From the IMG/VR virus record IMGVR_UViG_3300029305_007758: a DNA stretch of 64,000 nt. One strand, written 5' to 3'. A program made the position numbers and the translations under genes. This document shows, piece after piece, positions 23-53,494 of this stretch. The first letter of the stretch is position 1. Each line of letters begins with the position of its first letter. This stretch comes from a virus (lineage: Duplodnaviria > Heunggongvirae > Uroviricota > Caudoviricetes). The notes below the pieces were generated by a model. The model saw nothing but the letters and a program-made list of their open reading frames with translations. It had not been told where the DNA came from and did not search any database.

Positions 23-205
23 ATGAAAGAAACGGCTATTATCAATTTCGATAGCAATATGGGTGGAATAGCAGTAAACATTGCACATGGTGATTATTCT
101 ATACTCCCATCTGATATGTATGAAATTAGAGATGGAAAAGTCTTTGTTTATGATTATGAGGAACACGGATATATTGATGCAGGATTAATGATATGGAGCG
201 ATTAA
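23..205 (+). CDS. hypothetical protein (60 aa; may be a window-edge fragment)
   Basis: ORF in the track. Same orientation and packing as downstream genes. No recognisable domain. Confidence 0.3.
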   Translation: MKETAIINFDSNMGGIAVNIAHGDYSILPSDMYEIRDGKVFVYDYEEHGYIDAGLMIWSD

Positions 206-207
206 AT

Positions 208-555
208 ATGAGTGATCAGAATAAATTTGAAGAATTAGTTAAATTGTTAGCAGAATTATCCTGCGACAGTGCATATGATGAAGAAATCAGTTTATTTGAA
301 GACAAGGTTGGCACAATTTGTAAAGCTTCAGGATTTGAAGGGCCATATTTTGGAATTGCACAGTCTGATTGGGAAGGAATTGATTGCCATACAAGATATT
401 CAAAAGCAAAGTTTTGTGCCGGATATTATGATGGGTCCCAAGCACCATTTTTAGTATGCGAATGGAACGATGATCTTGAGAAACTGGAAATGTTATTAAA
501 AGAAACTTCTGAAACATTGTATGAGATGTATCAGGAACGATTAAAAGAAGAATAA
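208..555 (+). CDS. hypothetical protein, tandem paralog 1 (about 116 aa)
   Basis: ATG at 208 is preceded by GGAG with a 9 nt spacer. Protein is about 60% identical to the 853..1230 product and shares its KFE(E/K)LVK(L/M)LAELS N-terminus. The last ~110 nt are near-identical at DNA level. Confidence 0.6.
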   Translation: MSDQNKFEELVKLLAELSCDSAYDEEISLFEDKVGTICKASGFEGPYFGIAQSDWEGIDCHTRYSKAKFCAGYYDGSQAPFLVCEWNDDLEKLEMLLKETSETLYEMYQERLKEE

Positions 556-852: not shown

Positions 853-1230
853 ATGACTGATCAGTATAAGTTCGAGAAATTAGTAAAAATGTTAGCAGAA
901 TTGTCAGATGACCATAAATATGATGATGAAATTTATTTGTTTGCAGATAAAGTGGGTGCAATTTGCGAAGCATCAGGGCTTGAATCACCATGTTTTGGAA
1001 TTGCACGTTCACAATGGAGTTGTATTGATTTTTATCCAAACGTTCGTATGTATTCTAATCCTGGTTTGATTAAATTTCATGCAGAATACTACGATGGTAA
1101 TCAAGCACCGTTTATTGTGTGCGAATGGAATGATGATCTTGAGAAACTGGAAATGTTGTTAAAAGAAACATCTGAAACATTATATGAGATGTATCAGGAG
1201 CGATTGAATCGAAAAGGAGCATATTTATGA
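853..1230 (+). CDS. hypothetical protein, tandem paralog 2 (125 aa)
   Basis: AGGAGG RBS. Paralog of 208..555. Confidence 0.65.
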   Translation: MTDQYKFEKLVKMLAELSDDHKYDDEIYLFADKVGAICEASGLESPCFGIARSQWSCIDFYPNVRMYSNPGLIKFHAEYYDGNQAPFIVCEWNDDLEKLEMLLKETSETLYEMYQERLNRKGAYL

Positions 1231-12361: not shown

Positions 12362-12901
12362 TTGAATGAATTTATAAACAGCAGCATTATTCAAAAATTA
12401 TCGTCTGCTACAAATATGAAAATTGAATCAAAAGATGATGTATTACATGCAATAGATACACTGTTGGATAAATTAGAGGTTTCAGAAGCTATGAATCCAT
12501 CTAAAATTACGTCTGCAAAAAGCAAACTTGTATATTGTAAAAACTGTGGCAAGCAAATTTTGGCAAATGGCATTGAAACAATGTGTTATTTCTGCAAAGA
12601 TCAGGAACTGTTTGAAAGTGTAAAAGAATATATCCGCAACAATGATGTTAGAGAATATGAAGTTGCTACAAAATTTAAAATTCCTGTATCACGTGTTCGT
12701 AATTGGATTCGTGAAGGCCGAATTCAATATAAAGAAGCTGATACAACTAAAATTATTACACATTGCATTGTCTGTGGCGAGCCTATTCGCTTTGGTACCG
12801 TTTGTTCCAGATGCTTAAGAACACAAAATATGTCTGGTACAGAAACAGCACTTAAAGTATCAGATCCTGGAGGAATGTGGTTTTTAGGAAACAATGAATA
12901 A
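12362..12901 (+). CDS. zinc-ribbon protein (two CxxC pairs)
   Basis: TTG start with an AAAGGAAA RBS. The nearby ATG is out of frame. CKNCGK..CYFCKD and CIVCGE..CSRC motifs. Confidence 0.45.
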   Translation: MNEFINSSIIQKLSSATNMKIESKDDVLHAIDTLLDKLEVSEAMNPSKITSAKSKLVYCKNCGKQILANGIETMCYFCKDQELFESVKEYIRNNDVREYEVATKFKIPVSRVRNWIREGRIQYKEADTTKIITHCIVCGEPIRFGTVCSRCLRTQNMSGTETALKVSDPGGMWFLGNNE

Positions 12902-12918
12902 AGAAAGGATGAACAATT

Positions 12919-13122
12919 ATGATACGTTCAGAAATTAATCGTAGACAGTTTTCAAACAAAGGGCAATCTTGGTTCAGTTATCATATGGCAGGCTGGGCTT
13001 GTAATCATAGAGGTTGGCAGAAAATGAAGTTACGAAACAAACGACTGTTTAAAAGAAAGTTTCGTAACGAAATGAGACGAGAAATTGAAGATACATTAAA
13101 AGAAATAGAAAAATCATATTAA
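12919..13122 (+). CDS. small basic protein
   Basis: GAAAGGA RBS. Confidence 0.45.
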   Translation: MIRSEINRRQFSNKGQSWFSYHMAGWACNHRGWQKMKLRNKRLFKRKFRNEMRREIEDTLKEIEKSY

Positions 13123-13145
13123 CAAAATCATGGAGGATGAAACTT

Positions 13146-13751
13146 ATGCCAATAGTAGGTGAAGGTGATTATGTAAAAATAGAATATTCGATACCGAAAG
13201 AAATTAAGGAACTTGTAACATATGATTTCTTAAAAGAATTTCGAAATCAGTTATTCCGTATTCATAAACATTATGACTTAGGAACATTTGCAGATGTAGG
13301 TATTCCAATTAACACATCAACAGCTGGTTGGTATACGGCATTTGGGAAGGCCTGTTTGGTCACACATAATGAATCATTATTTGATTATTACAGAACACTT
13401 CCTTGGTACGATAGTGATTTGTTCGATAGTGAACTTGCAGAAATGTTAGTAGAACAGAAATTAATCCTTGACGATGCTGCAAAAGTAATTGGCGAACAAT
13501 TAGGAATTGACCCAGAGGATATTGTTAGATGTTGCGATTGCGGAAAAATATATACAAAAGATATGATAGAACTTGTTTCAAAAGATGACGATGATTTTGA
13601 TAACGAATATGAACAATATCGTTGTTTTTACTGTATCGATTACAAAAACAGAAGCAATAAAGAACATAATGTAACAGATTATTATCGAGAGGTTATAAAT
13701 GAATTGGATGAATATAAAGCATCTCATCCAATTTGTAACGAAGAGGAGTGA
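13146..13751 (+). CDS. hypothetical protein
   Basis: GGAGG RBS 9 nt upstream of ATG 13146. Confidence 0.55.
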   Translation: MPIVGEGDYVKIEYSIPKEIKELVTYDFLKEFRNQLFRIHKHYDLGTFADVGIPINTSTAGWYTAFGKACLVTHNESLFDYYRTLPWYDSDLFDSELAEMLVEQKLILDDAAKVIGEQLGIDPEDIVRCCDCGKIYTKDMIELVSKDDDDFDNEYEQYRCFYCIDYKNRSNKEHNVTDYYREVINELDEYKASHPICNEEE

Positions 13752-13756
13752 TAACA

Positions 13757-13996
13757 ATGGTATCAGGAATTAATATGATGACAAAACAGGTAAATGTAAC
13801 AGTTGATATTGATGTGGCCAGAGTAATGCTTGGAATTGCCGGATTTGATATAAAAGGCAAATCTGATGATGAAGTGTTTGAACAAGTGCTTGAAATGATG
13901 ACTGATTATGGCGGTACAGGAGAAGTTGTGGAGAATATTTCATTAACTGAAAAAGAATTCGATACATATGATGAACTAGATCCGGAATTAGGATAA
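13757..13996 (+). CDS. hypothetical acidic protein
   Basis: AGAGGAG RBS. Confidence 0.45.
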   Translation: MVSGINMMTKQVNVTVDIDVARVMLGIAGFDIKGKSDDEVFEQVLEMMTDYGGTGEVVENISLTEKEFDTYDELDPELG

Positions 13997-14012
13997 TAAC
14001 ATAATTATAGAG

Positions 14013-14041
14013 AAGATGATACACTTTTGTATCATCTTTTT
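14013..14041 (+). terminator. Rho-independent terminator
   Basis: agatgatac actttt gtatcatct followed by tttt. Confidence 0.6.
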
Positions 14042-14072
14042 CTACGTTTTAAGTATAAATGAACCTTATATA
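14042..14072 (+). promoter_or_regulatory. motif-A promoter-like element upstream of the alarmone-hydrolase gene
   Basis: ctacgtttt aagtataaat gaaccttatata. Confidence 0.6.
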
Positions 14073-14104
14073 CATATAAAACAGTTTAAGTGGAGGTAGA
14101 ATTG

Positions 14105-14767
14105 ATGAATGAAACAAAAGCTTATGTACCAAATGTTGAAAAAATGTACACATATTTACGAGGCTTTTTAGTTGGAGCACAGATGGCTGAATCAATTCAT
14201 GCGTTGCAGTTTGCCCGTGAGCAGCATAAAGACCAGCTACGTAAAAATAATGTCCCATATATTATTCACCCATTATCTATGGCTTGTTATGCTGTTGCAT
14301 TAGGAATTCGGGACGATAATATGATAGCAACAATTTTGCTGCATGATGTTGTAGAAGACTGCAATGTACCGGTGGAACAGTTGCCATTTAATGATGAAAT
14401 CAAACGCGGTGTCAAATATATGACTGTAACAAAGTTTGATACGGACCGGGATAAGGTTGAAACAAAAGCTCGTTACTATAGAAATCTGTTAGAAGATCGC
14501 AATGCTTTACTTTGTAAAGCATTTGACCGTTACAATAATCTTTGTGACATGCCGTTTGCATTGTCAGCAGATGCAATTGGTAAAAATGTGGCTGAAACAG
14601 AAGTATTTTTATTACCAATTCTTAAAGAAGCAAAAGAGAAGTGGGCAGATTTGTCGGACATTTTATTTGTGCTTCGGACAAATATCCGCAGCGTAAATGA
14701 TATTTTGAAACTACATAATCCAAAAGAAGCAGAGCATTGGATTAAATATTATTTGGGAGAAGAATAG
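14105..14767 (+). CDS. SpoT/Mesh1-like HD-domain small alarmone ((p)ppGpp) hydrolase
   Basis: The HPLSMACYAV...ATILLHDVVEDC segment matches the RelA/SpoT hydrolase HD motif (H..H...LLHDvvED). GGAGG RBS. Motif A at 14042..14072. Confidence 0.7.
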   Translation: MNETKAYVPNVEKMYTYLRGFLVGAQMAESIHALQFAREQHKDQLRKNNVPYIIHPLSMACYAVALGIRDDNMIATILLHDVVEDCNVPVEQLPFNDEIKRGVKYMTVTKFDTDRDKVETKARYYRNLLEDRNALLCKAFDRYNNLCDMPFALSADAIGKNVAETEVFLLPILKEAKEKWADLSDILFVLRTNIRSVNDILKLHNPKEAEHWIKYYLGEE

Positions 14768-14768
14768 T

Positions 14769-14951
14769 ATGTTAACAAAAAAGCAGAAAGAACGATTTGA
14801 TCGAAACGGATATACGTATCCAAAAGAAAAGGATACGCCAATTATTGATTTTTTTGATGATTTAACCGAACATATATTGTTTAAGCCTACTCTATTTCTC
14901 ATTATTCAATATCTGATTTTTGCAGGATATATAGGATATATAACAAATTAA
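14769..14951 (+). CDS. small membrane protein
   Basis: GGGAGAAG RBS. Confidence 0.35.
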   Translation: MLTKKQKERFDRNGYTYPKEKDTPIIDFFDDLTEHILFKPTLFLIIQYLIFAGYIGYITN

Positions 14952-14964
14952 GAAGGGATTAGTG

Positions 14965-15504
14965 ATGAATAGATTTTTTATAAGTGACACGCATTTTGGT
15001 CACTATGGCATGTTAAAACATGAATCATCGAGTCGTCCATTTAAAAGCATCGAAGAAATGGATGAAACAATGGTTCGTAACTGGAATTCTGTTGTCGGTA
15101 AAAATGATGAAGTATATATTTTAGGCGACTTTTCGTGGCATAAAAATCCGGAACGAACATTAGAGATTTTAAAGCAACTTCATGGCAAGAAATATTTGGT
15201 ACTTGGCAATCATGATGAACAGATTGTAAAGAACAAAGAACTTCGGGATCAGTTTATTTGGGTTAAGGATTATTATCGACTCAATGTTAATGGTTTGAAG
15301 ATTATTTTGTTCCATTACCCGATTCAGGATTGGGATTGCAAATTCCATGGGTCCATTCATTTATATGGCCATGTACATAGTAACAAGAATAACGCCATGC
15401 CGCTTGAAATTCCAGGCTCATACAATGTATGTGCCGATGTGAATGGGTTGACACCGGTAAGTTTGGAACAGATTAAGAAACGATTAGGAGTGTATGCAAC
15501 ATGA
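14965..15504 (+). CDS. calcineurin-like metallophosphoesterase
   Basis: Motifs DTHFGH, GDF, GNHD. Confidence 0.7.
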   Translation: MNRFFISDTHFGHYGMLKHESSSRPFKSIEEMDETMVRNWNSVVGKNDEVYILGDFSWHKNPERTLEILKQLHGKKYLVLGNHDEQIVKNKELRDQFIWVKDYYRLNVNGLKIILFHYPIQDWDCKFHGSIHLYGHVHSNKNNAMPLEIPGSYNVCADVNGLTPVSLEQIKKRLGVYAT

Positions 15505-16505
15505 AAGTTGTATTTTTAGATGTTTGTGGCGTTTTGTATAATTGCTATACGAAAGAACTGACGCCAAATAAAATGTGTGGGGTTGATAATTCATTAGTTA
15601 AACGCTTTTCTGAAATAGTAAAAGAACTTGATTTAACGATTGTCTTAATAGGATCATTTGGAAGAGATAATTTAACGGAGCAAGAATATCTTCAAGAAAA
15701 AATGGCGAAATATGGTATTGAATTTACAGATACTGCATATTCAGAATGGCTTGAAAAGTATGAAATTGGTGTTAGAAATTATTTATCTAAGCATGATGTT
15801 GAATCATATGTAATTCTTTACAGCAATTATGGTGGCCCACTCGACAAATATGAAAATGAACTTGAATATCATTTAGTGAACGTAAGTCGTTTAACAGGGT
15901 TAACGGATGCAGATGTTGATAAAATAAAAGAGATTATTAATGGTAGATTAGCAGTGCCAGCGGATACCGATGATAAAAAAGAGATTAAAAAAGAGACTGT
16001 TAAAGGAGAAACAAAAATGGCAGAACAGAAGAAAATTAAGCCAATGACAATTGCGGAATGTCAGGTTGAGACAATTAAGCATATTGACAGAGTCAGATAT
16101 TACATTCGTATTTTTACAGATAAACTCACTACAAGAGGTGTGGAACATGATAAAACGAAGCTTGAATCACCGGAAGTAGAGTTATTTGCAGAACATACAC
16201 CAAAGTTAGCAAGTTTAACTTATGGCACAGAAGAATATCAGCAGTCGTTAGATGAATTAAATATTGCATTGCAACATCATTATGCGCAGCATAGACATCA
16301 TCCGGAACATTTTAAACGTGGTATTAATGACATGAATCTTGTTGATATTGTTGAATTTTTCTGTGACATTAAAGCTGCTTCAGAACGTCAGCATGATGGG
16401 AATTTGTTAAAAAGTATCGAGTCGTGTGCGGAACGATTTGGTATCGATGATCAGTTGAAGCAGATTTTAATCAATACTGCAAAGATGATTGATGAACAGG
16501 GGTAA
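15501..16505 (+). CDS. fusion of a degenerate HAD-like phosphatase domain and a C-terminal HD-domain phosphohydrolase
   Basis: N-terminal FLDVCGVL is a degenerate DxDG motif. C-terminal H..HD..D pattern (KHIDRV..EHDK..FFCD). ATGA overlap with the upstream gene. Confidence 0.55.
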   Translation: MKVVFLDVCGVLYNCYTKELTPNKMCGVDNSLVKRFSEIVKELDLTIVLIGSFGRDNLTEQEYLQEKMAKYGIEFTDTAYSEWLEKYEIGVRNYLSKHDVESYVILYSNYGGPLDKYENELEYHLVNVSRLTGLTDADVDKIKEIINGRLAVPADTDDKKEIKKETVKGETKMAEQKKIKPMTIAECQVETIKHIDRVRYYIRIFTDKLTTRGVEHDKTKLESPEVELFAEHTPKLASLTYGTEEYQQSLDELNIALQHHYAQHRHHPEHFKRGINDMNLVDIVEFFCDIKAASERQHDGNLLKSIESCAERFGIDDQLKQILINTAKMIDEQG

Positions 16506-16511
16506 ATATAT

Positions 16512-16970
16512 ATGAAAGTATTGTTTTTGGACATTGATGGTGTTTTAAATAATGACGCCACAACAGAAAAGTCCCCAGATGGATATACAGGTATTGATGA
16601 TTCATTGGTAGAGCGTTTAGCAAAAGTTATTAAAGAATTGGAATTAACAATTGTATTAACATCTACATGGAAAGATGATTGGATCAACAAGAAGCCAGAT
16701 GGATTATATCTTGATGCAAAAATGGAGAAACATGATATCCAAATTTTAAATAGGACATTTGATACATCAGAAAGTAAACGTGGCTCTGGTATTCGAACAT
16801 ATCTGTCACAGAATGACATTGAATCATATGTAATCGTAGACGATAATGACTTTTCAGATTTTACAGATGAACTGTTGGATCATTTTGTAATGACAAATCC
16901 TGTAACGGGTTTATCTGATGCAGATATTGTTGCAATTAAAAAGATTGTGAAAAAGGAGAAAAACACATGA
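16512..16970 (+). CDS. HAD-like phosphatase (paralog of the N-terminal domain of 15501..16505)
   Basis: FLDIDGVLNN, an intact DxDG motif I. Confidence 0.6.
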   Translation: MKVLFLDIDGVLNNDATTEKSPDGYTGIDDSLVERLAKVIKELELTIVLTSTWKDDWINKKPDGLYLDAKMEKHDIQILNRTFDTSESKRGSGIRTYLSQNDIESYVIVDDNDFSDFTDELLDHFVMTNPVTGLSDADIVAIKKIVKKEKNT

Positions 16971-17084
16971 GTCATACACAGATTACTGCAACACTAATTG
17001 GAATTACCATATTGATTGCTTGGCTGCTTAAAGATCCAATTATCAATATGTTTCAGTGTTTGATGAATTAAAGGAGATAGGTTT

Positions 17085-17405
17085 ATGAAATTGTCGGATT
17101 GGACAGTAGTAACATACGAAAACGAAGGAAATTCAAAATCACATTATCTTTATGGACCAATTGAAGAATTTATAGAAAATGAAGAAGATAGGTACAATAT
17201 GAATATTGTACCACAAGAAGAGTGGTCTATCGAAAATATGATAGAAATTACCAGTAACTTGTTAGAAGATATCAATCATCATAAAACAGAGGCTGCGCCA
17301 CGATTTATTGTCGGCACAATGATTTCGGTGGGGATCAGTGATGATGATATCAAAAGTTTTATGCGGGAGTATATGGAACAAATTTATAATCGATACGGGT
17401 ATTGA
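17085..17405 (+). CDS. hypothetical protein
   Basis: AAAGGAGA RBS. Confidence 0.5.
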   Translation: MKLSDWTVVTYENEGNSKSHYLYGPIEEFIENEEDRYNMNIVPQEEWSIENMIEITSNLLEDINHHKTEAAPRFIVGTMISVGISDDDIKSFMREYMEQIYNRYGY

Positions 17406-17461
17406 AAGTATCGATATGAGAACGGTACAGTTTTGTATCGTTCTTTTTCTTTGTTCCAATT

Positions 17462-17476
17462 CAAACCATATTTATT
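17462..17476 (+). promoter_or_regulatory. motif-B promoter-like element (AACCATATTTAT)
   Basis: tcaaaccatatttatt, about 35 nt upstream of ATG 17508. Confidence 0.5.
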
Positions 17477-17507: not shown

Positions 17508-19721
17508 ATGCGTAAAGGACAAATTAAAATACTGGAACAAGCAAAGCAATACAATTTAATATCGGAACAAATGGCTATGTTATCAAAAGAAGACTTAACA
17601 CTTGATGAATTAGACGTCTTGTTAACATATTTTATATATCCAAAGGACATTAATCCAAAAGAATTAGTAAACGAAGCCGAGAAATGGGTCACATTTTTAC
17701 ATGAACATCGTAATGAATTCCCAAATACAGATGCGTACATTCGAGTGATGAGAGCATTGTTACGAAGTACTTGGACACTTTCCGATACATTAATTGGTAA
17801 CAAGAAAAAGATGCGTATTTATAAATGGTTTCTGTACTTGTATCGAAGATCTGTAAAAACAAATGAAGAATTTAACTGGGATTATTGGCGTGCATTTTAT
17901 GCGTATGAACATGCATTGTATGAAAATTTAACTGAGTGGCAGACATCTTTGTTTATACGAATTGAAGCAACAGATACTCATTATATTTGGCTGAATAATA
18001 TCTTTGAAAAATATCCAAGTATTTTGGATAACTTTTTACATGCTGAAAAAGATTCCTTATTATATTTCCTGTATCAAAAAGAAATCGTAGCAACATTTCA
18101 ACCAACAAAAGATGTATTAGACTCATTATATGATTATGATAACCATTGTTACAAATTTTCGTTTGATGAATTTGACACATATTTTATCAAACGAATCAAA
18201 GATTATCGTGGCGAATATGAATACAAAGAAAACTTTGATTTTCTTACAAAACAGGCTCTAAAATCTTATCCATTTGTAAATACAATCATTGATTATTGTG
18301 AACAAAATGGATTTACAAAAGATAAATACGTAAAAGGATATGTTACATATAAACAATCTGCATTAAAAGATCCATCGAATCAAGATAGAATTGATGCAGG
18401 CTATGCTGCATTAAGTCAAGGGTTTAATATAAATATTGATTCAACTTATTCAGAAGTTAATATTAGTAGTAAAGGATTTGTATCCATTATATACAATGAA
18501 TACAGTTCCATTTATGTTGGAGTGGATAAATCAAGCAAATGGAATGCTGTACCAAAGTCTGTTACAGTAAAACGAAGCCTTATGATTGCACCGGATGGAA
18601 GTTTGTATCGTAAAAATAAGTCTGGAAAAATATATCCCGTATCAATGAGTGAATTTATGTATTTATACAAACGAAACGATCTTGTTGGATACTTTGCAAA
18701 ATTAGTGCTTGATTATTGGGCTAAACAAAATCCGTTTTACAAAGATGTGTTCCAAGATTTTGAATCAGCCCACTGCACCATGCCATTATTGTTTAATGAA
18801 ATTCTGCAGTATCATAATCGTGCCGAGCTTCTTCGAAGCAAATACAAATTGGCAAATGAGCTTCATGTAAAATGGAATAAACAAAACATGATTCTTTCGT
18901 ACATGATTATCAAAGCATATAAAAAGGTTGAACCGGGAAAGAGTCAACAGATTTTGCTGCAGCAAAAAGATGAAAAAATACTTTGTGACAGTGTTTATGG
19001 TTTCAAAGTGAAGCAAAACATAGAGATTTTTTTAAGTAAATTGCTTAAAAAACTTACGATGCAAAGTAAATTCGTCAAAGAAACAGAGCGACAAATTAAT
19101 CAATTAAAAAAGAAGTATCAAAAAGAATTAGAAGACGAACTTAATACTTCAATGACACATGAAGAATTTGATGAATGGATTGAGGATCGTATCACTGATG
19201 AATTACAGTTAAATGATCTGAATCGTATTATTGAAGATTATTTAGATATGTGTCATCAAACTAAGGTGAAAATAAAGCTTGATGTAGGTTCCATTCGTCA
19301 ACTTATAAACATGCATGACAGATTTAATGAAAATCCAAATTATTATAGAGCACATACAAAAGAAGTTTCAGTACCGGATGATTCAAAGTTTAATGAATTA
19401 AGAGAACTACTGCCAAAAGAATTTGAATGGATTAAGACTCGTAAACGTTTAATTTTAGAAACAGAATTTCAGCATCATTGTGTATGGCGCTATGCAAATG
19501 GTATCACAAAAGATCGTTGTGCCATTTATTCATTTGTTAACAGTGAGGAAAATGGAACAAAAAAACGTTATACCATTGAATTTAGAGTCAATAAAAAGGG
19601 TGAATATGTTATTAATCAGGTACAAGGTCGATACAATCGTAGCAATACGGAATATATCAAATCCTACATTGAAGACGTTTTGAAAGAATCGTACGAAAAC
19701 AAATTTAGTCTCGGAGCTTAA
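17508..19721 (+). CDS. large hypothetical protein (737 aa)
   Basis: Long uninterrupted ORF. Motif-B promoter at 17462..17476. No recognisable domain. Confidence 0.7.
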   Translation: MRKGQIKILEQAKQYNLISEQMAMLSKEDLTLDELDVLLTYFIYPKDINPKELVNEAEKWVTFLHEHRNEFPNTDAYIRVMRALLRSTWTLSDTLIGNKKKMRIYKWFLYLYRRSVKTNEEFNWDYWRAFYAYEHALYENLTEWQTSLFIRIEATDTHYIWLNNIFEKYPSILDNFLHAEKDSLLYFLYQKEIVATFQPTKDVLDSLYDYDNHCYKFSFDEFDTYFIKRIKDYRGEYEYKENFDFLTKQALKSYPFVNTIIDYCEQNGFTKDKYVKGYVTYKQSALKDPSNQDRIDAGYAALSQGFNINIDSTYSEVNISSKGFVSIIYNEYSSIYVGVDKSSKWNAVPKSVTVKRSLMIAPDGSLYRKNKSGKIYPVSMSEFMYLYKRNDLVGYFAKLVLDYWAKQNPFYKDVFQDFESAHCTMPLLFNEILQYHNRAELLRSKYKLANELHVKWNKQNMILSYMIIKAYKKVEPGKSQQILLQQKDEKILCDSVYGFKVKQNIEIFLSKLLKKLTMQSKFVKETERQINQLKKKYQKELEDELNTSMTHEEFDEWIEDRITDELQLNDLNRIIEDYLDMCHQTKVKIKLDVGSIRQLINMHDRFNENPNYYRAHTKEVSVPDDSKFNELRELLPKEFEWIKTRKRLILETEFQHHCVWRYANGITKDRCAIYSFVNSEENGTKKRYTIEFRVNKKGEYVINQVQGRYNRSNTEYIKSYIEDVLKESYENKFSLGA

Positions 19722-19799: not shown

Positions 19800-21167
19800 A
19801 TGTCAACAAAAGCAAATGTTAAAAATAACGCAGTAGCACCGGCTCCAAATTCAATTATTTTATCAAAAAATCATTATCTCAACTTAGATCGTAGCATTAG
19901 TGGTTTAAATAGTAATGTTTTAGCAATTGGTTCTGCCGGGACTGGGAAATCGTACGCATTTGTTCGTCCAAATTTAAAACAAATGAATGGAAATTATGTT
20001 GTTACAGATTGTCGTAATGAATTATATAAGTATGTGGCAGATGATTTCAAGAAAAAAGGATATAAAGTTGAAATAATTGATTTCAAAAATGTAAGCGGTG
20101 CACATTACAATCCATTCCAATATTTGAATACAGAATCAATTGATACAATAAGTCATGATATTAAAGAGATTGTAGATATTATTATTACTGAAACAGAACT
20201 AAGAAATATAACAGCTCAAAAAGATACTGAATCAGATTCATATTTAACCAATTTCGAAAAGGTTATTTTAGAAATTCTTATGCTTCATACATATGTACAA
20301 CATGGAACATCTGCATCATTCGTATCTTTGATTCAAACTTTGAAACGATTGGCTGATGCGGAAGATCTTTATGCAGAATATAAATTGTTGCTTGATGAAA
20401 TTGAAGCAAAATATCCTTGTTCACAGATTGGAAAAACAGCATCAGAAAAACATGCATATGTAACAGTTGCTAATCTATCATTTAAAAATGTAATTGTTTC
20501 TTTAGCTGTACGATTAACGCCGTTTCAGTATTATTATGTAGACAAAAATCATGCTAGAAAAACACGAGACGAATTAGATTTGAAGCAGTTATTAACAAAG
20601 AAATATGCATTGTTTATTAATTTCTCTGATTACGATTTGATGATGCGTCCACTTGAAGCAGTATTGATGTATCAGATTATTCGAGTATTAATGACTGGCG
20701 GTAAGAATAATATGCCAGTACAGTTTGTTTTGGATGAGTTTTCAAACTTTGGTGAAATTCCTGATTTTGACAAAGTGATGTCTGTTTCAAGCTTTTATAA
20801 TATGTCATTTTTAGTTATGATTCAGAGCTTTGAGCAATTAAAACATGTATACAAAGAGAAGTTTGCAACAATTATGAATTGTTTTGATACTATTGTAAAT
20901 TTTGGCATATTTAGCCTTTATGATATAGATTATTTGCTTAAGCTATATGGAAATGAAATAATTGTTCCAGAACCATCACAAAAGTTAACACTAGGTATGA
21001 AACTTCGTTTATGGTTGAAAGAGAAAATAGTTGGAACAGAAAATATGCATTATGTTCGTGCTTTTAGAGCCGAGGAGTTACGACAAATGGATATGAAATA
21101 TTGTATCGTTTCCAAACGTGGCGAAAAACCGGTATTAGATGAAAAATATTGGCCAGATAAAAAATAG
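19800..21167 (+). CDS. VirD4/TraG-like (type IV coupling protein-type) P-loop ATPase domain protein, no TM anchor
   Basis: Walker A GSAGTGKS followed by NYVVTDCRNELY, and Walker B FVLDEFSNFG. These match the TraG/VirD4 signature. Confidence 0.5.
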   Translation: MSTKANVKNNAVAPAPNSIILSKNHYLNLDRSISGLNSNVLAIGSAGTGKSYAFVRPNLKQMNGNYVVTDCRNELYKYVADDFKKKGYKVEIIDFKNVSGAHYNPFQYLNTESIDTISHDIKEIVDIIITETELRNITAQKDTESDSYLTNFEKVILEILMLHTYVQHGTSASFVSLIQTLKRLADAEDLYAEYKLLLDEIEAKYPCSQIGKTASEKHAYVTVANLSFKNVIVSLAVRLTPFQYYYVDKNHARKTRDELDLKQLLTKKYALFINFSDYDLMMRPLEAVLMYQIIRVLMTGGKNNMPVQFVLDEFSNFGEIPDFDKVMSVSSFYNMSFLVMIQSFEQLKHVYKEKFATIMNCFDTIVNFGIFSLYDIDYLLKLYGNEIIVPEPSQKLTLGMKLRLWLKEKIVGTENMHYVRAFRAEELRQMDMKYCIVSKRGEKPVLDEKYWPDKK

Positions 21168-39810: not shown

Positions 39811-41139
39811 TTAATCTTCTTTTGGCAAAACATGTTCACTTTGATTACTTGTATCAGAAATGGATGTAATACTGTCAATGATTGTTAAAATGTCGTCATC
39901 ATCTTGCGACTTTGAAAATGTGAGACTACGATTTCGAAGCAATTTATCTTTTCTTTCTTCCGGCTCTGTTCCAGATATCTTTCTTAAAACTGCATTTTTA
40001 AGTTTCTGACCTGCGGAAAACTGTAATCGTCTCACCTCAATTGCATCAATATCTAATTGTTTTGCAACTTCATTTGGATTACATTTTTTATCCAAATCAA
40101 TAATCTCATGGTCATCAATTAATATTTTAAATCCATTAGATAATTCATACACTTTCTGTTCAATTTCTGTTAAACAACGAAAGGCTTCGATTAATTCTTC
40201 TACACGTTCTTGTGACATAATACGCTCTTCCGGCGTTTCAAATCGACTTTGTTTACGTTTGTTTGTAGCACTATTTTCATCATCAATTCGAGTCATTGTA
40301 TTTTCTGCTAAAATTCGAGCTGATGATAATTTAATCTGTTCCGGAGTTAATTCTTCTCCATGACGTTTGCAATAATTTGAAATCATATGAACTGTAGGTT
40401 TAAGTCCTTGTTCCAATAATGCTGTTTGCGCTTTACTTACAATGCGGTCAACTCTCATCGTAGTTTTAGATGCTCTAAAATTCTTCTTTGCTTCAAAATT
40501 ACTGATAGCGTCCTGAATTCTGGTTCGATAATAAGTTGTTAATTCTGCCTTGTTATAATCGTATTTGTCAATATCGTTCCAAATATATACCCAACAATAA
40601 GACATTGCATCTTGTATATCCTCATGCATTTTTGCAATATTTACATAATGATGCGCATGTTTTTTATAAAACTGTTCCACTTTTACTCGCACGAAGTTTC
40701 TAAAAAACATATAAAATGCTTCTTTTGTTCGATTCATGGCTTCTTCTGATGCACTTTTTTCGTAATTCTGAATTGCATCAATAATAAAATGTTGAGCCTC
40801 TAATACATGTTTTTTTGCAAAGAATTCTGCATATTTAATTGCTTCAATTTGTGTTTTTTCTGTCGCAATTCCATAGTATAAATCTTCTGCAATACTAAGA
40901 TCAAAATCACCTGTATATTCGGTCGTTTTTTGTTCTCTTACTTCATCGTTCGTAAATAAAGAATATTCGTTATCATCAAATTCTTCATAATCAACAAAAT
41001 CATCATCTTCCTCTTCGTCAAATAATTCATCTGTTGTATCAAACGTTTCGTCATATTCTTCATCACCAGGGCCATAATCAAACGCCCCAACATCATCAAT
41101 GTCATCATATAAATCGTCTTCTACATACTTTGTTCCCAT
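39811..41139 (-). CDS. divergent sigma-70-family-like factor with acidic N-terminus (tentative)
   Basis: Region-2-like EDIQDAMSYCWVYIWNDIDKYD...TYYRTRIQDAI. Region-4-like HTH NEVAKQLDIDAIEVRRLQFSAGQKLK. Confidence 0.4.
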   Translation of the reverse strand: MGTKYVEDDLYDDIDDVGAFDYGPGDEEYDETFDTTDELFDEEEDDDFVDYEEFDDNEYSLFTNDEVREQKTTEYTGDFDLSIAEDLYYGIATEKTQIEAIKYAEFFAKKHVLEAQHFIIDAIQNYEKSASEEAMNRTKEAFYMFFRNFVRVKVEQFYKKHAHHYVNIAKMHEDIQDAMSYCWVYIWNDIDKYDYNKAELTTYYRTRIQDAISNFEAKKNFRASKTTMRVDRIVSKAQTALLEQGLKPTVHMISNYCKRHGEELTPEQIKLSSARILAENTMTRIDDENSATNKRKQSRFETPEERIMSQERVEELIEAFRCLTEIEQKVYELSNGFKILIDDHEIIDLDKKCNPNEVAKQLDIDAIEVRRLQFSAGQKLKNAVLRKISGTEPEERKDKLLRNRSLTFSKSQDDDDILTIIDSITSISDTSNQSEHVLPKED

Positions 41140-47377: not shown

Positions 47378-48118
47378 TTATAATTTTGGCTCAAATATTG
47401 CTCTTGGCTTCAATTTAAATTTGTTATCATGATGACGTTTCATAATTGCTTGTTTAACTCTTATATCGCTACATAATCCGGTGCGAATAAAACGATCTAA
47501 GTCTTTATAACTGAATCCAAAGTTGTCTTCATCTGTTTTACCACAAAGACCATCGGACGGAGTTTTGTCGACCAAATAATCTGGCAATCCTAAGTAATGT
47601 CCGATTGCAATTACCTCTGTCGCAGTTAATCCGCCAAGTGGAGCAAAATCACCTTCACCATCTCCGCCAATTGTAAAATATCCAATATAATCTTCGGATA
47701 AATTACATGTGTTTACCATGCGACCATTTTCACATTGGCAAATGGCGCGAATTACTTTGGTACGTTCACGTGGTGGCAAGTTTTCTCGGGCCTGTTTTGT
47801 GATTTCGATGCCGCATTTTTCAAGCTCACGATAAGTAGCTTCTACACCGTCTTTAATGTTTACAGTGTAATTTTTGATACCTAAGTATTCGCAAACAGCA
47901 ATTGAGTCTGCAATATCTGCCTGTTCGCCATTTGGCAACATTACACCGATGACTCGTTCTTTTCCTAATGCACGAACGCATAATGCTGCTGCAATGGTGG
48001 AGTCTTTGCCACCCGAGATGCCTAACGCAGCATTGCAATCTGACCCATTTTTCTTGAACCATGCCTGGATCCAACTAACCAGATCATTTGTTGTTTGTTC
48101 TACGTTGAAATTGTACAT
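47378..48118 (-). CDS. nadE: NH3-dependent NAD+ synthetase
   Basis: PP-loop LGISGGKDSTIAAALC (SGGxDS). Size and overall layout fit NadE. Start trimmed to MYNF, which has a GAGGAAG RBS. Confidence 0.85.
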   Translation of the reverse strand: MYNFNVEQTTNDLVSWIQAWFKKNGSDCNAALGISGGKDSTIAAALCVRALGKERVIGVMLPNGEQADIADSIAVCEYLGIKNYTVNIKDGVEATYRELEKCGIEITKQARENLPPRERTKVIRAICQCENGRMVNTCNLSEDYIGYFTIGGDGEGDFAPLGGLTATEVIAIGHYLGLPDYLVDKTPSDGLCGKTDEDNFGFSYKDLDRFIRTGLCSDIRVKQAIMKRHHDNKFKLKPRAIFEPKL

Positions 48119-48263
48119 ATTTCTTCCTCGCTTCTTAATCAATCTGTTTTGCACCTAACAGGTTCAATAACCCCGTTTCAAATGCAGTTGTTACACATTT
48201 TTCTGCGTTATCAACTTCATAGTTTACTGAATCAACTCTAACTTCGAAACACTAGGATAAATC

Positions 48264-49469
48264 CTAGTGTTCCATTCTCCAATTGATACAACGCTGTAAG
48301 TAATCAACATATGCATCATTTTTACACATACCTTTACCTGGAGTATCACTGATTTTTGCACAATCACTACCATTCACATTTGTTACTTTCATAACAATGT
48401 TTAAAGCTGGCGCAAATGTATCATTTGAGATATAAGTTCCAATTCCAAATGCAACTTTTGCTCTGCCACAGAAGTGACGCGCAATTTTATCTGCCTTTTC
48501 AAAGTTTAAACTGTCACTAAATAACAGTGTCTTTGTTTTTGGATCGATACCAAGTGATTCATAATGACGAATCATTTTTTCGCCCCATTCAATTGGATCA
48601 CCACTATCATGGCGTACACCGCTAAAAAGTGATGCAAATGTTAACTGAAAATCTTTTAAGAATACATCAGTTGTAATTGTGTCAGTTAACATGATTCCAT
48701 TTAATACTCCGTATTCTTTAACCCATGCTTCCATTGTGTACCAATTTGAATAAGCAGGATTGTGTTTCGGATTACCCTGACCAATTGCCATATTGAGCTC
48801 ATGCGCCATGGTTCCGACAGCAGTCAGTCCAAATTTCTTTGCCAGATATACATTACTTGTTCCAACAAAATTGCTGCAACCATACTTTGTTTCAGCTAAG
48901 CGTTTTACAGCATATTCCTGTGCCTCAGCTGATAAACGTCTACGAAGACCAAATTCACTGAAATTTGCTAAGTAAAGTGGACCACCAACAGCAATCTTCT
49001 TTAACTTTTCTTCGAAATGTTCTTTGAAGCTAATAAGCAATTCATCATAATCATACATCATACGGAAATATACTTCATTTACGATTGCAAGCACCGGAAT
49101 TTCATACATAGATGTATTGAGCCAAGCGCCTTTTGCTTCAATGGATAAACCACATTCAGCATCTGTTGTGATTGTAAAATCTTCGAAACGAGGACTCCAG
49201 AGACGTAAGAAATCAATGTATGACTTTTTGAGCCATTTAATTGATGCAAGATACTGTAATTCTTCTTCAATAAATCGAAGATCGCAGTACGCTTTAATCT
49301 GTTCAGTAATCTCTTCCACAATTGCTGGTGTGAAATATACATCCTTGTTACGACATTTAAATGTCCATGTTGTTTCATAATCAGAAAACTGATGGAAGAT
49401 ACACTGACCCATGCTAAGTTTGTACAAATCTGTCTCTAAGAGACTTGTAATAATTGGATTGAGTTTCAT
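48264..49469 (-). CDS. pncB: nicotinate phosphoribosyltransferase
   Basis: SLLETDLYKLSMGQCIFHQF, GTSNVYLAKKFGLTAVGTMAHE, GVRHDSGDPIEWGEKMIRHYESLGIDPKTKTLLFSD and NIVMKV..NG...AKISDTPGK are collinear with the conserved blocks of class-I PncB. 401 aa. AAGGAG RBS. Motif B at 49516..49525. Confidence 0.9.
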   Translation of the reverse strand: MKLNPIITSLLETDLYKLSMGQCIFHQFSDYETTWTFKCRNKDVYFTPAIVEEITEQIKAYCDLRFIEEELQYLASIKWLKKSYIDFLRLWSPRFEDFTITTDAECGLSIEAKGAWLNTSMYEIPVLAIVNEVYFRMMYDYDELLISFKEHFEEKLKKIAVGGPLYLANFSEFGLRRRLSAEAQEYAVKRLAETKYGCSNFVGTSNVYLAKKFGLTAVGTMAHELNMAIGQGNPKHNPAYSNWYTMEAWVKEYGVLNGIMLTDTITTDVFLKDFQLTFASLFSGVRHDSGDPIEWGEKMIRHYESLGIDPKTKTLLFSDSLNFEKADKIARHFCGRAKVAFGIGTYISNDTFAPALNIVMKVTNVNGSDCAKISDTPGKGMCKNDAYVDYLQRCINWRMEH

Positions 49470-52936: not shown

Positions 52937-53494
52937 TTATCGCACCTCCACCTGACACATCTTCATTGCTTCAATAGCTGTTTTGTGTGACTCTGGAGTT
53001 ACGCATGCGCATGCTTTTTCGATAACGCAAATCTTTGTTTCCGGCACCGCTGCTTTCGCAATAAGTACGTTACTGATAACACAGATTCCGGTACAAACGC
53101 CACAGAAATGAATTTCGTCATAATCAGAAAATTCAAATTTAAGTTTATGTGCCAAAATTTCAGAACCAAATGTTGGTTTCTCAAGAACTATTCCTTTTAT
53201 ATATTTAGACGCAGATGTTAATTTTGAAGTCTGATTTACAATTGCTTCTTTAATATCTTTCTGAATCTCATGACCTTTTGTACCTCTGATACAATGTGGA
53301 ACCGGTAAATTTCTACCTTCCTGTGTTTCCATGTAATTTTCGCCATGAGTATCCTGAGTCGTAATAATTGCATCATACTCACCTGATTCAATAAGCTTAA
53401 TTACTTCCGGTACTGTTGCTGCGCATTCAGCGTTTCCCAATGGTCCTGTTAAAAAGTCGTTCTGCATGTCCACGATTACTAATGCTTTTTTCAT
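52937..53494 (-). CDS. pncA: nicotinamidase (isochorismatase-fold)
   Basis: ALVIVDMQNDF (catalytic Asp). PHCIRGTKGHEI, compare PncA PHCVSGTPGADF (metal site). FCGVCTGICV, compare ATDHCV (catalytic Cys). Confidence 0.8.
   Translation of the reverse strand: MKKALVIVDMQNDFLTGPLGNAECAATVPEVIKLIESGEYDAIITTQDTHGENYMETQEGRNLPVPHCIRGTKGHEIQKDIKEAIVNQTSKLTSASKYIKGIVLEKPTFGSEILAHKLKFEFSDYDEIHFCGVCTGICVISNVLIAKAAVPETKICVIEKACACVTPESHKTAIEAMKMCQVEVR

What the first reader, a model, noticed from the sequence alone, without database searches (positions are those of the whole stretch)
14105..14767. Phage-encoded SpoT/Mesh1-like small alarmone hydrolase
The HD motif HPLSMACYAVALG...ILLHDVVEDC is the RelA/SpoT hydrolase signature in a 220 aa stand-alone protein with its own motif-A promoter. 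It could blunt the host stringent response during infection. It could also detoxify alarmone-synthetase-based defences, since toxSAS/CapRel/FaRel-type systems make (p)ppGpp, (p)ppApp or pyrophosphorylated tRNA. Together with the NAD genes this points to a nucleotide-signal-centred anti-defence repertoire.
Basis: partly seen in the sequence, partly recalled or inferred. Interest (0 to 1): 0.55.

Follow-up and report, generated by a model that had tools for sequence, protein, structure and literature searches.

The report
Stand-alone alarmone hydrolase on a mobile element
The gene is a real, intact, stand-alone RelA/SpoT-type alarmone hydrolase on a large phage-like element from gut Clostridia, but phage enzymes of this kind are already published, so it is a correct annotation and not a discovery.

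Summary
The ORF at 14105-14767 (+) is real. It has a GGAGG ribosome-binding site, encodes 220 aa, and contains the quoted HP...HDVVED motifs. It belongs to the RelA/SpoT hydrolase (HD_4) family by Pfam, NCBIfam, sequence search of solved structures, and a confident AlphaFold model whose fold matches only Rel/SpoT hydrolase domains and small alarmone hydrolases (SAHs). All metal-binding and catalytic residues are present, and they are near-invariant in 116 distant relatives. No synthetase domain is attached or encoded nearby.

The repeated promoter-like "motif A" is also real: 10 copies against 0 expected, one of them 35 nt upstream of the start codon. The gene heads a seven-ORF unit that also encodes Metallophos, HAD_SAK_2/DUF5662 and HAD_SAK_2 phosphoesterases. 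It is not a solo gene.

"Phage-encoded" is unproven. About 84 kb of the contig was examined and shows no capsid, terminase or portal gene, and it carries TraG/VirD4-like and PcfJ genes. Close homologues do sit on viral-classified contigs of up to 402 kb.

Phage SAHs that neutralise toxSAS toxins were shown experimentally in 2020. The anti-defence role here is inference only. Verdict: a new member of a known kind. The one modestly new lead is a recurrent link to RNA-repair genes.

The parts
14010..14041 (+). Terminator-like hairpin closing the upstream transcription unit
   Evidence: A 14-bp stem followed by a T-run, the only terminator-like site in 12800-17200. RNAfold gives -16.3 kcal/mol.
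14045..14070 (+). Motif A, an element-specific promoter-like sequence (CGTTTT-N10-GAWCCTTATA)
   Evidence: 10 copies in the window against 0.00 expected in 100 shuffles, all on the coding strand in intergenic regions. This copy ends 35 nt before the ATG.
14092..14096 (+). Shine-Dalgarno GGAGG
   Evidence: Read directly from the sequence, 8 nt upstream of ATG 14105.
14105..14767 (+). Small alarmone hydrolase (RelA/SpoT HD_4 domain only), 220 aa
   Evidence: Pfam HD_4, TIGR00691 and PHROG 990 match. PDB sequence hits are Rel/SpoT and SAHs. The AF2 model has pLDDT 93. Foldseek hits are exclusively RSH hydrolases. Catalytic residues H55, H80, D81, E84, D85, D141, N145, R46, K47 and Y52 are conserved.
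14769..14951 (+). 60-aa ORF with a hydrophobic C-terminus, starting 1 nt after the SAH stop
   Evidence: ORF list. Called as a gene on all six contigs that carry the identical SAH. No family hit.
14962..15504 (+). Calcineurin-like metallophosphoesterase (Metallophos)
   Evidence: Pfam E=1.4e-9. PDB 1xm7 matches at 2.5e-15. Related Metallophos genes occur near the SAH in L012, L014, L021 and L089.
15501..16505 (+). HAD_SAK_2 + DUF5662 fusion protein (334 aa)
   Evidence: Pfam DUF5662 5e-30 and HAD_SAK_2 1.6e-10. A DUF5662 gene also follows the SAH in L007 and L013.
16512..16970 (+). Second HAD_SAK_2 protein (152 aa)
   Evidence: Pfam E=1.4e-26. DxDG motif MKVLFLDIDGV.
17085..17405 (+). 106-aa ORF of unknown function, last gene of the unit
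   Evidence: ORF list. No credible family hit.
17417..17450 (+). Terminator-like hairpin ending the putative operon, followed by motif B at 17466
   Evidence: Sequence. RNAfold gives -15.1 kcal/mol. Motif B CCATATTTAW occurs 24 times against 0.9 expected.

Best explanation
The gene encodes an active, single-domain member of the RelA/SpoT-homologue hydrolase family, i.e. a small alarmone hydrolase. It is predicted to be a Mn2+-dependent HD-domain enzyme that removes the 3'-pyrophosphate from (p)ppGpp and probably (p)ppApp. Several other SAHs also remove this group from 3'-pyrophosphorylated tRNA CCA ends, so this one may too. The gene sits on a large, 32% GC, phage-like mobile element, apparently of ruminant or gut origin. 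It is transcribed from an element-specific promoter (motif A) as the first gene of a roughly 3.4-kb unit that also encodes a metallophosphoesterase and HAD_SAK_2/DUF5662 phosphoesterases. Its most likely benefit to the element is to keep host alarmone levels low, preventing a stringent-response shutdown during replication. It could also undo the products of toxic alarmone synthetases (toxSAS such as CapRel, FaRel and PhRel). Shown here: family, fold, intact active site, single-domain architecture, transcription-unit anatomy, distribution. Inferred: substrate, metal, timing, physiological role.
For: Family: HD_4 is above Pfam's gathering score, and TIGR00691 covers residues 33-150 only, which is the hydrolase part of a 687-position model. 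The best PDB sequence matches are Rel/SpoT N-terminal hydrolase domains, followed by MESH1, Lmo0812, TdActSpo2 and Aph1. Fold: the AF2 model has pLDDT 93.1 and pTM 0.89. All 46 Foldseek PDB hits with E below 0.3 are RSH hydrolase domains or SAHs, with TM up to 0.78 to P. aeruginosa SAH. Viral structure hits are annotated (p)ppGpp hydrolases or HD proteins, many from jumbo phages. Active site: in the alignment to B. subtilis Rel, H80/D81 align with H77/D78, E84/D85 with E81/D82, R46/K47/Y52/H55 with R44/K45/Y50/H53, and D141...N145 with the DRLHN motif. These residues are invariant in 26 close homologues. In 116 representatives at 27-57% identity the counts are H55 116/116, D81 116/116, H80 115, E84 115, D141 112, N145 112 and R46 113. 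Architecture: the protein is 220 aa with no synthetase, TGS or ACT domain. No RelA_SpoT synthetase appears among the 24 Pfam families hit by 64 other window ORFs. Precedent: stand-alone SAHs of Salmonella phages PVP-SE1 and SSU5 neutralise all tested toxSAS (PMC7229694). MESH1 and ATfaRel restore aminoacylation of pyrophosphorylated tRNA (bioRxiv 10.1101/2021.04.30.441581), and the SSU5 SAH removes the FaRel2 tRNA modification (PMC11245113). Fusions of the wider family to NUDIX, His_Phos_1 and PAS-GGDEF-EAL fit a nucleotide-signal substrate.
Against: No biochemical data exist for this clade. Substrate preference cannot be read from sequence; a published phage SAH annotation makes the same point (PMC12846349). 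No toxSAS is known in the unidentified host. Neighbourhoods of homologues show no fixed partner. The element is not proven to be a phage. Pfam aligns only residues 33-93 to HD_4, so the C-terminal half rests on TIGR00691, PDB alignments and the fold.
Confidence: 0.65

Rival explanations
1. The primary substrate is RNA, not free nucleotides. The SAH would be the 3'-pyrophosphate-removing member of an RNA 3'-end-healing toolbox (SAH + Metallophos + HAD_SAK_2/DUF5662 + HAD_SAK_2) that restores tRNA CCA ends damaged by host defence enzymes.
For: Operon anatomy. HAD_SAK_2 is named for 'Swiss Army Knife RNA repair proteins'. A DUF5662 gene lies immediately downstream of the SAH in 3 of 11 non-redundant phage-like loci, even though those DUF5662 proteins have diverged to phmmer E~1e-4. 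RtcB RNA ligase is 1-2 genes downstream in L011 and L012 and adjacent in bacterial loci L031 and L054. A CCA-adding enzyme and Tpt1 are nearby in L007. An HD + AAA_33 kinase-like gene overlaps the SAH gene in L029. RNA-ligase OB-fold domains occur near it twice. SAHs are proven to de-pyrophosphorylate tRNA.
Against: The linkage is recurrent but a minority pattern, and accessory genes cluster in large phages anyway. Background frequencies were not measured. NAD-metabolism genes are about as frequent among the neighbours. The wider-family fusions (NUDIX, GGDEF-EAL) point to small nucleotides. DUF5662 and these HAD and Metallophos proteins have no demonstrated RNA activity.
Confidence: 0.2
2. It acts like metazoan MESH1, as an NADPH (2'-phosphate) phosphatase that adjusts the NAD(P) pool together with the element's NAD-salvage genes.
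For: MESH1 is a significant sequence and structure match, including the MESH1-NADPH complex 5vxa. The window encodes NAPRTase, NAD synthase, a nicotinamidase-like protein and an NMNAT-like protein. Among homologue loci, NAD kinase is the next gene in L012, and isochorismatase (x3), SIR2 (x2), CTP_transf_like (x2), NAPRTase and NAD synthase lie within 5 kb.
Against: The protein is closer to bacterial long-RSH hydrolase domains (E=3e-12) than to MESH1 (1e-8). It keeps the Rel-type QxRK...PY and ET...LLP motifs. In the window the NAD genes are more than 30 kb away on the other strand. NADPH phosphatase activity has so far been reported mainly for MESH1 and one promiscuous bacterial SAH (abstract of PMC9765508).
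Confidence: 0.1
3. The element is not a phage but a megaplasmid, conjugative element or mis-assembled host DNA. The SAH would then serve plasmid or host physiology, such as self-protection or alarmone homeostasis, and not infection.
For: No capsid, terminase, portal or tail family was hit among about 95 ORFs of the window or in 10 kb beyond each end. A TraG/VirD4 coupling protein (19800-21167), a PcfJ-like protein (17508-19721) and a DnaG-DUF3854 primase are present. The contig is absent from IMG/VR, and two of its proteins have no close IMG/VR relatives. Bacterial genomes of Butyrivibrio, Lachnospiraceae, Clostridium porci and others carry family members at 30-58% identity, some in housekeeping contexts such as MatE and GH94.
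Against: All homologues above 60% identity that were looked up lie on long contigs with co-directional genes and phage-type content. Nine are IMG/VR viral contigs of 37-402 kb, and their neighbours include phage lysozyme, YopX, Phage_30_3 and intein-RtcB. The window has its own DnaE, a clamp-loader-like ATPase, a FEN nuclease, a sigma-like protein and two families of element-specific promoter motifs. Plasmid databases hold only distant relatives at 36% identity or less.
Confidence: 0.25
4. It is a catalytically dead, RelA-like pseudo-hydrolase with a purely regulatory or binding role.
For: Inactive HD domains exist in RelA (established knowledge of the RSH family). Pfam HD_4 aligns only the first 59 profile positions.
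Against: Every metal ligand and catalytic residue is present and under strong conservation across the family. The model is a complete, confident HD fold.
Confidence: 0.03

Closest known systems
Hydrolase (HD) domain of long RelA/SpoT homologues (Rel of B. subtilis, S. aureus, T. thermophilus, S. equisimilis; SpoT of A. baumannii)
   Same: These are the best sequence matches (E=3e-12, or 3e-15 with a profile) and the best fold matches. The motifs shared are H..Q.RK...PY..HP, HDxxED, K..DR..N and ET...LLP. The alignment covers about 200 residues, the whole HD domain including the C-terminal helices.
   Different: No synthetase, TGS or ACT domains are present. Identity is only 22-27%. Family-specific invariant residues include EDC in place of EDT, an N-terminal KMYTYL helix and GKNxAET.
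Phage-encoded stand-alone SAHs: Salmonella phage SSU5 (PaSpo) and PVP-SE1 (PbcSpo)
   Same: Single-domain RSH hydrolases carried by phages with no adjacent synthetase. They were shown to neutralise all tested toxSAS and to remove tRNA 3'-pyrophosphate (PMC7229694, PMC11245113).
   Different: Neither phage appears among the 32 tblastn hits at E<1e-5, so this is a different, Firmicutes-associated clade. The subfamily could not be assigned because the RSH subfamily HMMs are not available here. The hosts and the size class of the element also differ.
Crystallised bacterial and metazoan SAHs (MESH1, P. aeruginosa SAH, C. glutamicum RelH, TdActSpo2, L. levettii SAH, Lmo0812)
   Same: Same fold, with TM-score normalised to the target of 0.58-0.78, and the same catalytic residues.
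   Different: This protein is about 40 residues longer, identity is 18-24%, and by sequence it is closer to long-RSH HD domains than to any of these.
ATfaRel-type SAH antitoxins (type IV toxSAS toxin-antitoxin modules)
   Same: A hydrolase-only RSH that could detoxify toxSAS products.
   Different: ATfaRel is encoded next to its toxSAS. No synthetase gene is present in the window or among the sampled neighbours of homologues.
Aph1 (p)ppApp-specific hydrolases
   Same: HD-superfamily alarmone hydrolases.
   Different: The match is weak and partial: E=6e-4, N-terminal 60-75 residues only, TM-score normalised to the query 0.45. This protein is not a member of that family.

Membership tests
RelA/SpoT-homologue hydrolase domain (Pfam HD_4, PF13328) | Profile match above the curated threshold | tested here: met
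   33.0 bits against a gathering score of 27.2, E=6e-8. TIGR00691 gives E=2e-18 on model positions 1-123. The precomputed Pfam assignment on all 120 listed homologues is PF13328.
RelA/SpoT-homologue hydrolase domain (Pfam HD_4, PF13328) | Metal-binding H...HD...D tetrad (RelSeq H53, H77, D78, D144) | tested here: met
   H55, H80, D81 and D141 are present and align to B. subtilis Rel H53, H77/D78 and the DRLHN motif. They are invariant in A1 and conserved in 112-116 of 116 distant relatives. Metal geometry in the model was not inspected.
RelA/SpoT-homologue hydrolase domain (Pfam HD_4, PF13328) | Catalytic ED dyad after the HD motif, plus nucleotide-contact residues R/K, Y and N | tested here: met
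   E84, D85, R46, K47, Y52 and N145 are present. Conservation is E84 115/116, D85 103 (+11 E), R46 113, Y52 109 and N145 112.
RelA/SpoT-homologue hydrolase domain (Pfam HD_4, PF13328) | All-helical HD fold superposable on solved RSH hydrolases | tested here: met
   AF2 pLDDT 93.1. The Foldseek PDB top 46 hits are all RSH or SAH structures at probability 1.00.
Small alarmone hydrolase (SAH: hydrolase-only RSH) | Single HD domain with no synthetase or C-terminal regulatory domains, as a conserved full-length architecture and not a fragment | tested here: met
   The protein is 220 aa and only HD_4/HD are hit. More than 100 homologue clusters are 209-242 aa long. The downstream ORF is unrelated.
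Small alarmone hydrolase (SAH: hydrolase-only RSH) | Mn2+-dependent hydrolysis of (p)ppGpp and/or (p)ppApp | not testable with these tools
   Requires an enzyme assay.
Named SAH subfamilies (PaSpo, PbcSpo, PbcSpo2, Mesh1, Mesh1-L, RickSpo, DivSpo and others) | Best match to a subfamily HMM or placement in the RSH phylogeny (Atkinson 2011; Jimmy 2020) | not tested
   The subfamily HMMs are not available. Indirect evidence only: there is no E<1e-5 tblastn hit to SSU5 or PVP-SE1, and the closest solved SAH by sequence is MESH1 at 1e-8.
SAH antitoxin of a toxSAS toxin-antitoxin module (ATfaRel type) | Conserved adjacency to a toxic small alarmone synthetase gene | tested here: not met
   No RelA_SpoT synthetase family appears among the Pfam hits of the window's ORFs. 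None was seen among sampled neighbours of phage-like and bacterial homologues, but only the top 25 of 69 families were visible.
Phage-encoded protein | The genome encodes virion hallmark genes (major capsid, portal, terminase), or the contig is classified as viral | tested here: inconclusive
   None was found in the window or in 10 kb beyond each end, and the contig is not in IMG/VR. Nine homologues at 57-69% identity are on IMG/VR contigs.
Aph1 (p)ppApp hydrolase family | Full-length similarity to Aph1 (7smg) | tested here: not met
   E=6e-4 over residues 32-96 only. Foldseek TM-score normalised to the query is 0.43-0.48.

The most novel reading that the evidence does not exclude
In this lineage of very large Clostridia phages or mobile elements, the SAH is not a free-alarmone scavenger. 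It would be the 3'-pyrophosphatase component of a dedicated RNA 3'-end-healing operon (SAH, Metallophos, HAD_SAK_2-DUF5662, HAD_SAK_2), functionally allied with RtcB, CCA-adding enzyme and Tpt1 in relatives. The operon would repair tRNA acceptor ends pyrophosphorylated or otherwise blocked by host abortive-infection enzymes. That would make it a new kind of multi-enzyme tRNA-repair counter-defence module.
Probability: 0.15. Interest if true: 0.6.

Novelty: new member of a known kind. Interest (0 to 1): 0.3.

Why it matters
If the enzyme is active as predicted, it adds a large, uncharacterised, Firmicutes-associated clade to the known set of SAHs carried by mobile elements. That clade comprises hundreds of 90%-identity clusters on contigs of up to 672 kb. 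This would support the view that large phages routinely carry tools against nucleotide-based host signalling, here alongside NAD salvage and GGDEF/EAL genes. It opens no new question. The concept of a phage SAH blunting alarmone signalling and neutralising toxSAS was tested experimentally in 2020-2024. The only lead with discovery potential is the recurrent association with RNA-repair-type genes. That association could make the proposed in vivo role of SAHs as tRNA 3'-end repair enzymes testable in a natural operon.

Tried and rejected
- **Close phage relatives:** megablast of 13000-16500 against 50,697 phage records gave no match. The element has no sequenced close relative.
- **Conserved operon partner:** all-vs-all clustering of ORFs around 14 phage-like and 80 bacterial homologue loci found no universally conserved neighbour. 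A TA-like bicistron is therefore rejected.
- **Virion genes:** PHROGs and Pfam scans of about 95 window ORFs and the JGI annotations 10 kb beyond each window end found none. tblastn of the adjacent 1486-aa protein against phages gave no match.
- **IMG/VR membership:** an exact 41-mer and close relatives of the TraG-like and AAA proteins were all negative.
- **Neighbouring phosphoesterases:** DUF5662 has no literature and no PDB sequence relative. The Metallophos protein matches only an uncharacterised Aquifex protein. NCBIfam gave nothing useful.
- **Burroughs & Aravind 2016 RNA-repair paper:** it is not held in the library.
- **Sigma-70 promoter scan:** no excess over shuffles (22 found against 24 expected). 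The sigma-70-type reading of the upstream region was dropped in favour of the repeated motif A.
- **TAL-effector hits in the profile search:** these come from a short ET...LLPVL...A similarity multiplied by TALE repeats, with no individually significant stretch. Rejected as chance.
- **Pseudo-hydrolase reading:** rejected on residue conservation.
Full report
**Observation**

ATG is at 14105 and the TAG stop at 14765-14767, giving 220 aa. GGAGG at 14092-14096 lies 8 nt upstream. JGI's gene call on the source contig is the same 220-aa protein. The quoted peptides HPLSMACYAVALG and ILLHDVVEDC are residues 55-67 and 77-86.

**Family and fold**

- Pfam HD_4 is hit above its gathering score (33.0 against 27.2 bits, E=6e-8), although only residues 33-93 align.
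- NCBIfam TIGR00691 (spoT_relA) aligns residues 33-150 to model positions 1-123 of 687. That is the hydrolase end only (E=2e-18).
- PHROG 990, 'metal-dependent phosphohydrolase', scores 8.5e-23.
- Against solved structures, the best sequence matches are the N-terminal hydrolase domains of Rel/SpoT enzymes (3e-12). A profile of 26 homologues improves this to 3e-15.
- The stand-alone hydrolases follow: MESH1 (1e-8), Lmo0812, TdActSpo2, the L. levettii SAH, Aph1 and RelH.
- An AlphaFold2 model built on that alignment is confident (pLDDT 93.1, pTM 0.89; 11 helices).
- In Foldseek, every PDB hit down to E~0.3 is an RSH hydrolase domain or an SAH. TM-score normalised to the target reaches 0.78 for the P. 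aeruginosa SAH.
- In the viral structure library, the hits are annotated (p)ppGpp hydrolases or HD proteins, many from jumbo phages and giant viruses.

**Active site**

The residue mapping below comes from the printed alignment to B. subtilis Rel. The roles come from established knowledge of RelSeq, not from a test here.

| This protein | B. subtilis Rel | Role in RelSeq |
|---|---|---|
| R46, K47, Y52 | R44, K45, Y50 | nucleotide contacts |
| H55, H80, D81 | H53, H77, D78 | Mn2+ ligands |
| E84, D85 | E81, D82 | catalytic dyad |
| D141 ... N145 | DRLHN motif | Mn2+ ligand (D) and nucleotide contact (N) |

All of these are invariant in 26 homologues at 61-85% identity. I also aligned 116 representatives at 27-57% identity taken from the 1.84-billion-protein search. 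Conservation there is H55 116/116, D81 116/116, H80 115, E84 115, R46 113, D141 112, N145 112 and Y52 109. A RelA-like dead domain is very unlikely.

The protein retains the long-RSH C-terminal motif ET...LLP, which corresponds to Rel's ET...APLA. It is closer to long-RSH HD domains than to Mesh1. 'SpoT-like' therefore fits better than 'Mesh1-like'.

**Architecture and transcription unit**

No synthetase, TGS or ACT domain is present. The same ~215-aa architecture is shared by more than 100 homologue clusters, so this is a genuine SAH and not a fragment.

CGTTTT-N10-GAWCCTTATA occurs 10 times against 0.00 expected, always on the coding strand in intergenic DNA. The copy at 14045-14070 follows a terminator-like hairpin at 14010-14041. 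A second motif, CCATATTTAW, occurs 24 times against 0.9 expected.

Neither motif, and no terminator-like site, occurs between 14070 and the hairpin at 17417-17450. The SAH is therefore most likely the first gene of a unit with these members:

1. SAH, 14105-14767
2. 60-aa hydrophobic ORF, 14769-14951
3. Metallophos protein, 14962-15504
4. HAD_SAK_2 + DUF5662 fusion, 15501-16505
5. Second HAD_SAK_2 protein, 16512-16970
6. 34-aa ORF called by JGI
7. 106-aa ORF, 17085-17405

This is inference from sequence. No expression data exist.

**What the element is**

The window is 32% GC, with genes on the plus strand up to ~34 kb and on the minus strand beyond. It has no close relative among 50,697 phage records.

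Features that fit a large phage:
- DnaE
- a DnaG-type primase
- a clamp-loader-like ATPase
- a FEN nuclease
- a sigma-like protein
- a complete Preiss-Handler NAD salvage set
- TelA/tellurite-resistance-like and SPFH proteins
- adjacent GGDEF and EAL proteins

Features that do not fit, or that leave the question open:
- It carries a TraG/VirD4-type coupling protein and a PcfJ-like protein.
- No capsid, terminase, portal or tail family was hit in about 84 kb.
- The contig is not in IMG/VR, and two of its proteins have no close relatives there.

Against a non-phage reading, every homologue above 60% identity that I looked up sits on a long contig of co-directional genes with phage-type content. 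These contigs reach 672 kb, and nine are IMG/VR viral contigs of 37-402 kb. Their neighbours include phage lysozyme, YopX, Phage_30_3, NrdD, dUTPase and intein-containing RtcB.

I conclude that 'phage-encoded' is likely, at roughly three in four, but unproven.

More distant family members (30-58% identity) are common in rumen and gut Clostridia genomes. These include isolates of Butyrivibrio, Clostridium porci and Solibaculum, which suggests the host range. Many of those bacterial versions are XRE-HTH + HD_4 fusions of 271 aa.

**Context as a clue to function**

No neighbour is universally conserved. No alarmone synthetase was seen next to any sampled member. A toxin-antitoxin arrangement of the ATfaRel type is therefore not supported. 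Two themes recur among the neighbours.

- **RNA repair.**
  - A DUF5662 gene lies directly downstream of the SAH in 3 of 11 non-redundant phage-like loci, although those DUF5662 proteins are barely alignable to each other.
  - RtcB is 1-2 genes away in L011 and L012 and adjacent in bacterial loci L031 and L054.
  - A CCA-adding enzyme and Tpt1 are nearby in L007.
  - An HD + AAA_33 kinase-like gene overlaps the SAH gene in L029.
  - RNA-ligase OB domains occur twice.
- **NAD metabolism.** Isochorismatase occurs three times, SIR2 twice and CTP_transf_like twice. NAPRTase and NAD synthase also occur, and NAD kinase is the next gene in L012.

Fusions in the wider family involve NUDIX, NUDIX + His_Phos_1, PAS-GGDEF-EAL and a tandem HD_4. 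These point to small-nucleotide substrates.

**Mechanism and rivals**

The best-supported explanation is a Mn2+-dependent 3'-pyrophosphohydrolase acting on (p)ppGpp and (p)ppApp. It may also act on 3'-pyrophosphorylated tRNA. The element would deploy it to prevent alarmone-mediated shutdown and to neutralise toxSAS-type defences. The enzyme class is well supported. The physiological role is inference by analogy.

Three rivals remain:
1. A primarily RNA-directed 3'-end-healing role within the phosphoesterase operon.
2. A MESH1-like NADPH phosphatase role tied to the NAD genes.
3. A plasmid or host role if the element is not a phage.

A dead pseudo-enzyme is effectively excluded.

**What is already known**

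- SAHs were defined in 2011 (PMC3153485).
- SAHs were reported in 90 prophage or prophage-like regions. The stand-alone SAHs of Salmonella phages PVP-SE1 and SSU5 neutralised all tested toxSAS in 2020 (PMC7229694).
- MESH1 and ATfaRel were shown to restore aminoacylation of pyrophosphorylated tRNA.
- The SSU5 enzyme is described as removing the FaRel2 tRNA modification.

**Verdict**

The novelty category is 'new member of a known kind', and interest is about 0.3. The most novel reading not excluded is a tRNA 3'-end repair counter-defence operon, which I put at about 15% probability.

Noticed in passing
window, 10 sites: 631, 7061, 9764, 11340, 12311, 14045, 21218, 26560, 30223 (+) and 47330 (-); motif B at 24 sites: Two families of promoter-like motifs specific to this element. 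Motif A (CGTTTT-N10-GAWCCTTATA) has 10 copies against 0 expected. Motif B (CCATATTTAW) has 24 copies against 0.9 expected. Motif A always, and motif B nearly always, lies upstream of a gene on the coding strand, and motif A often follows a hairpin terminator. Neither resembles a sigma-70 consensus. They may mark two temporal classes read by an element-encoded factor, such as the sigma-like protein at 39811-41139.
   Followed up: partly
window 56771-58405 (-) and 58405-60291 (-): Adjacent GGDEF (diguanylate cyclase-type) and EAL (c-di-GMP phosphodiesterase-type) proteins on the element, according to JGI's precomputed Pfam hits. This is a second nucleotide-messenger module alongside the SAH.
   Followed up: no
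window 47378-48154, 48264-49469, 52937-53494, 53523-54095 (all -): A complete-looking Preiss-Handler NAD salvage set: NAD synthase with an SGGKDS motif, NAPRTase, an isochorismatase/nicotinamidase-like protein and an NMNAT/NadD-like cytidylyltransferase. It is reminiscent of phage NAD-reconstitution counter-defence pathways.
   Followed up: partly
window 17508-19721 (+) and 19800-21167 (+); L023 3592-5013: A PcfJ-like protein, a TraG/VirD4-type coupling ATPase (T4SS-DNA_transf, 6e-31) and a DnaG-DUF3854 primase. These are hallmarks of conjugative elements, on an element that otherwise looks like a large phage and shows no virion genes in about 84 kb.
   Followed up: partly
L007 (ENA ERZ27303357 k141_293346, 672,646 bp): A 672-kb contig carries a 65-67%-identical SAH. 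The 16.7 kb fetched around it is phage-like: co-directional genes that include a ClpP-like protease, an MCM/AAA ATPase, a CCA-adding enzyme, CheX, a response regulator, Dam methylase, Tpt1 and Metallophos. If viral, it would be among the largest phage genomes.
   Followed up: no
L039 3609-4424, and about 20 other bacterial loci (L037, L038, L046, L054, L060, L063, L067, L072-L074 and others): Lachnospiraceae and Clostridiales genomes encode 271-aa fusions of an XRE-type HTH (HTH_3, 5e-18) to this SAH-type HD_4 domain. They are often preceded by a conserved ~80-96-aa ORF of unknown function. This could be an alarmone-linked transcription factor or an antitoxin-like protein.
   Followed up: partly
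L011 8049-9722 and L012 7556-9220: Intein-containing RtcB RNA ligase genes lie 1-2 genes downstream of the SAH homologue on two different large phage-like contigs.
   Followed up: partly
L024, L026, L027, L028, L080 (genome contigs): Several of the closest hits in the genome collection (52-58% identity) are contigs binned into Candidatus Saccharibacteria MAGs from ruminant gut. They could be mis-binned phage or mobile-element contigs, or a real link to CPR bacteria.
   Followed up: no
window 193-555 (+) and 853-1230 (+): Two neighbouring ORFs of 120 and 125 aa are 69% identical to each other. They are a local tandem duplication of unknown function, and a motif-A copy lies between them at 631.
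   Followed up: no
SAH residues ~150-176 (window ~14552-14632): The family profile gives many sub-threshold hits to TAL-effector repeats, because AETEVLLLPVLKEAKE resembles the TALE repeat core ETVQRLLPVLCQA. I judged this a chance similarity multiplied by the repeats.
   Followed up: partly
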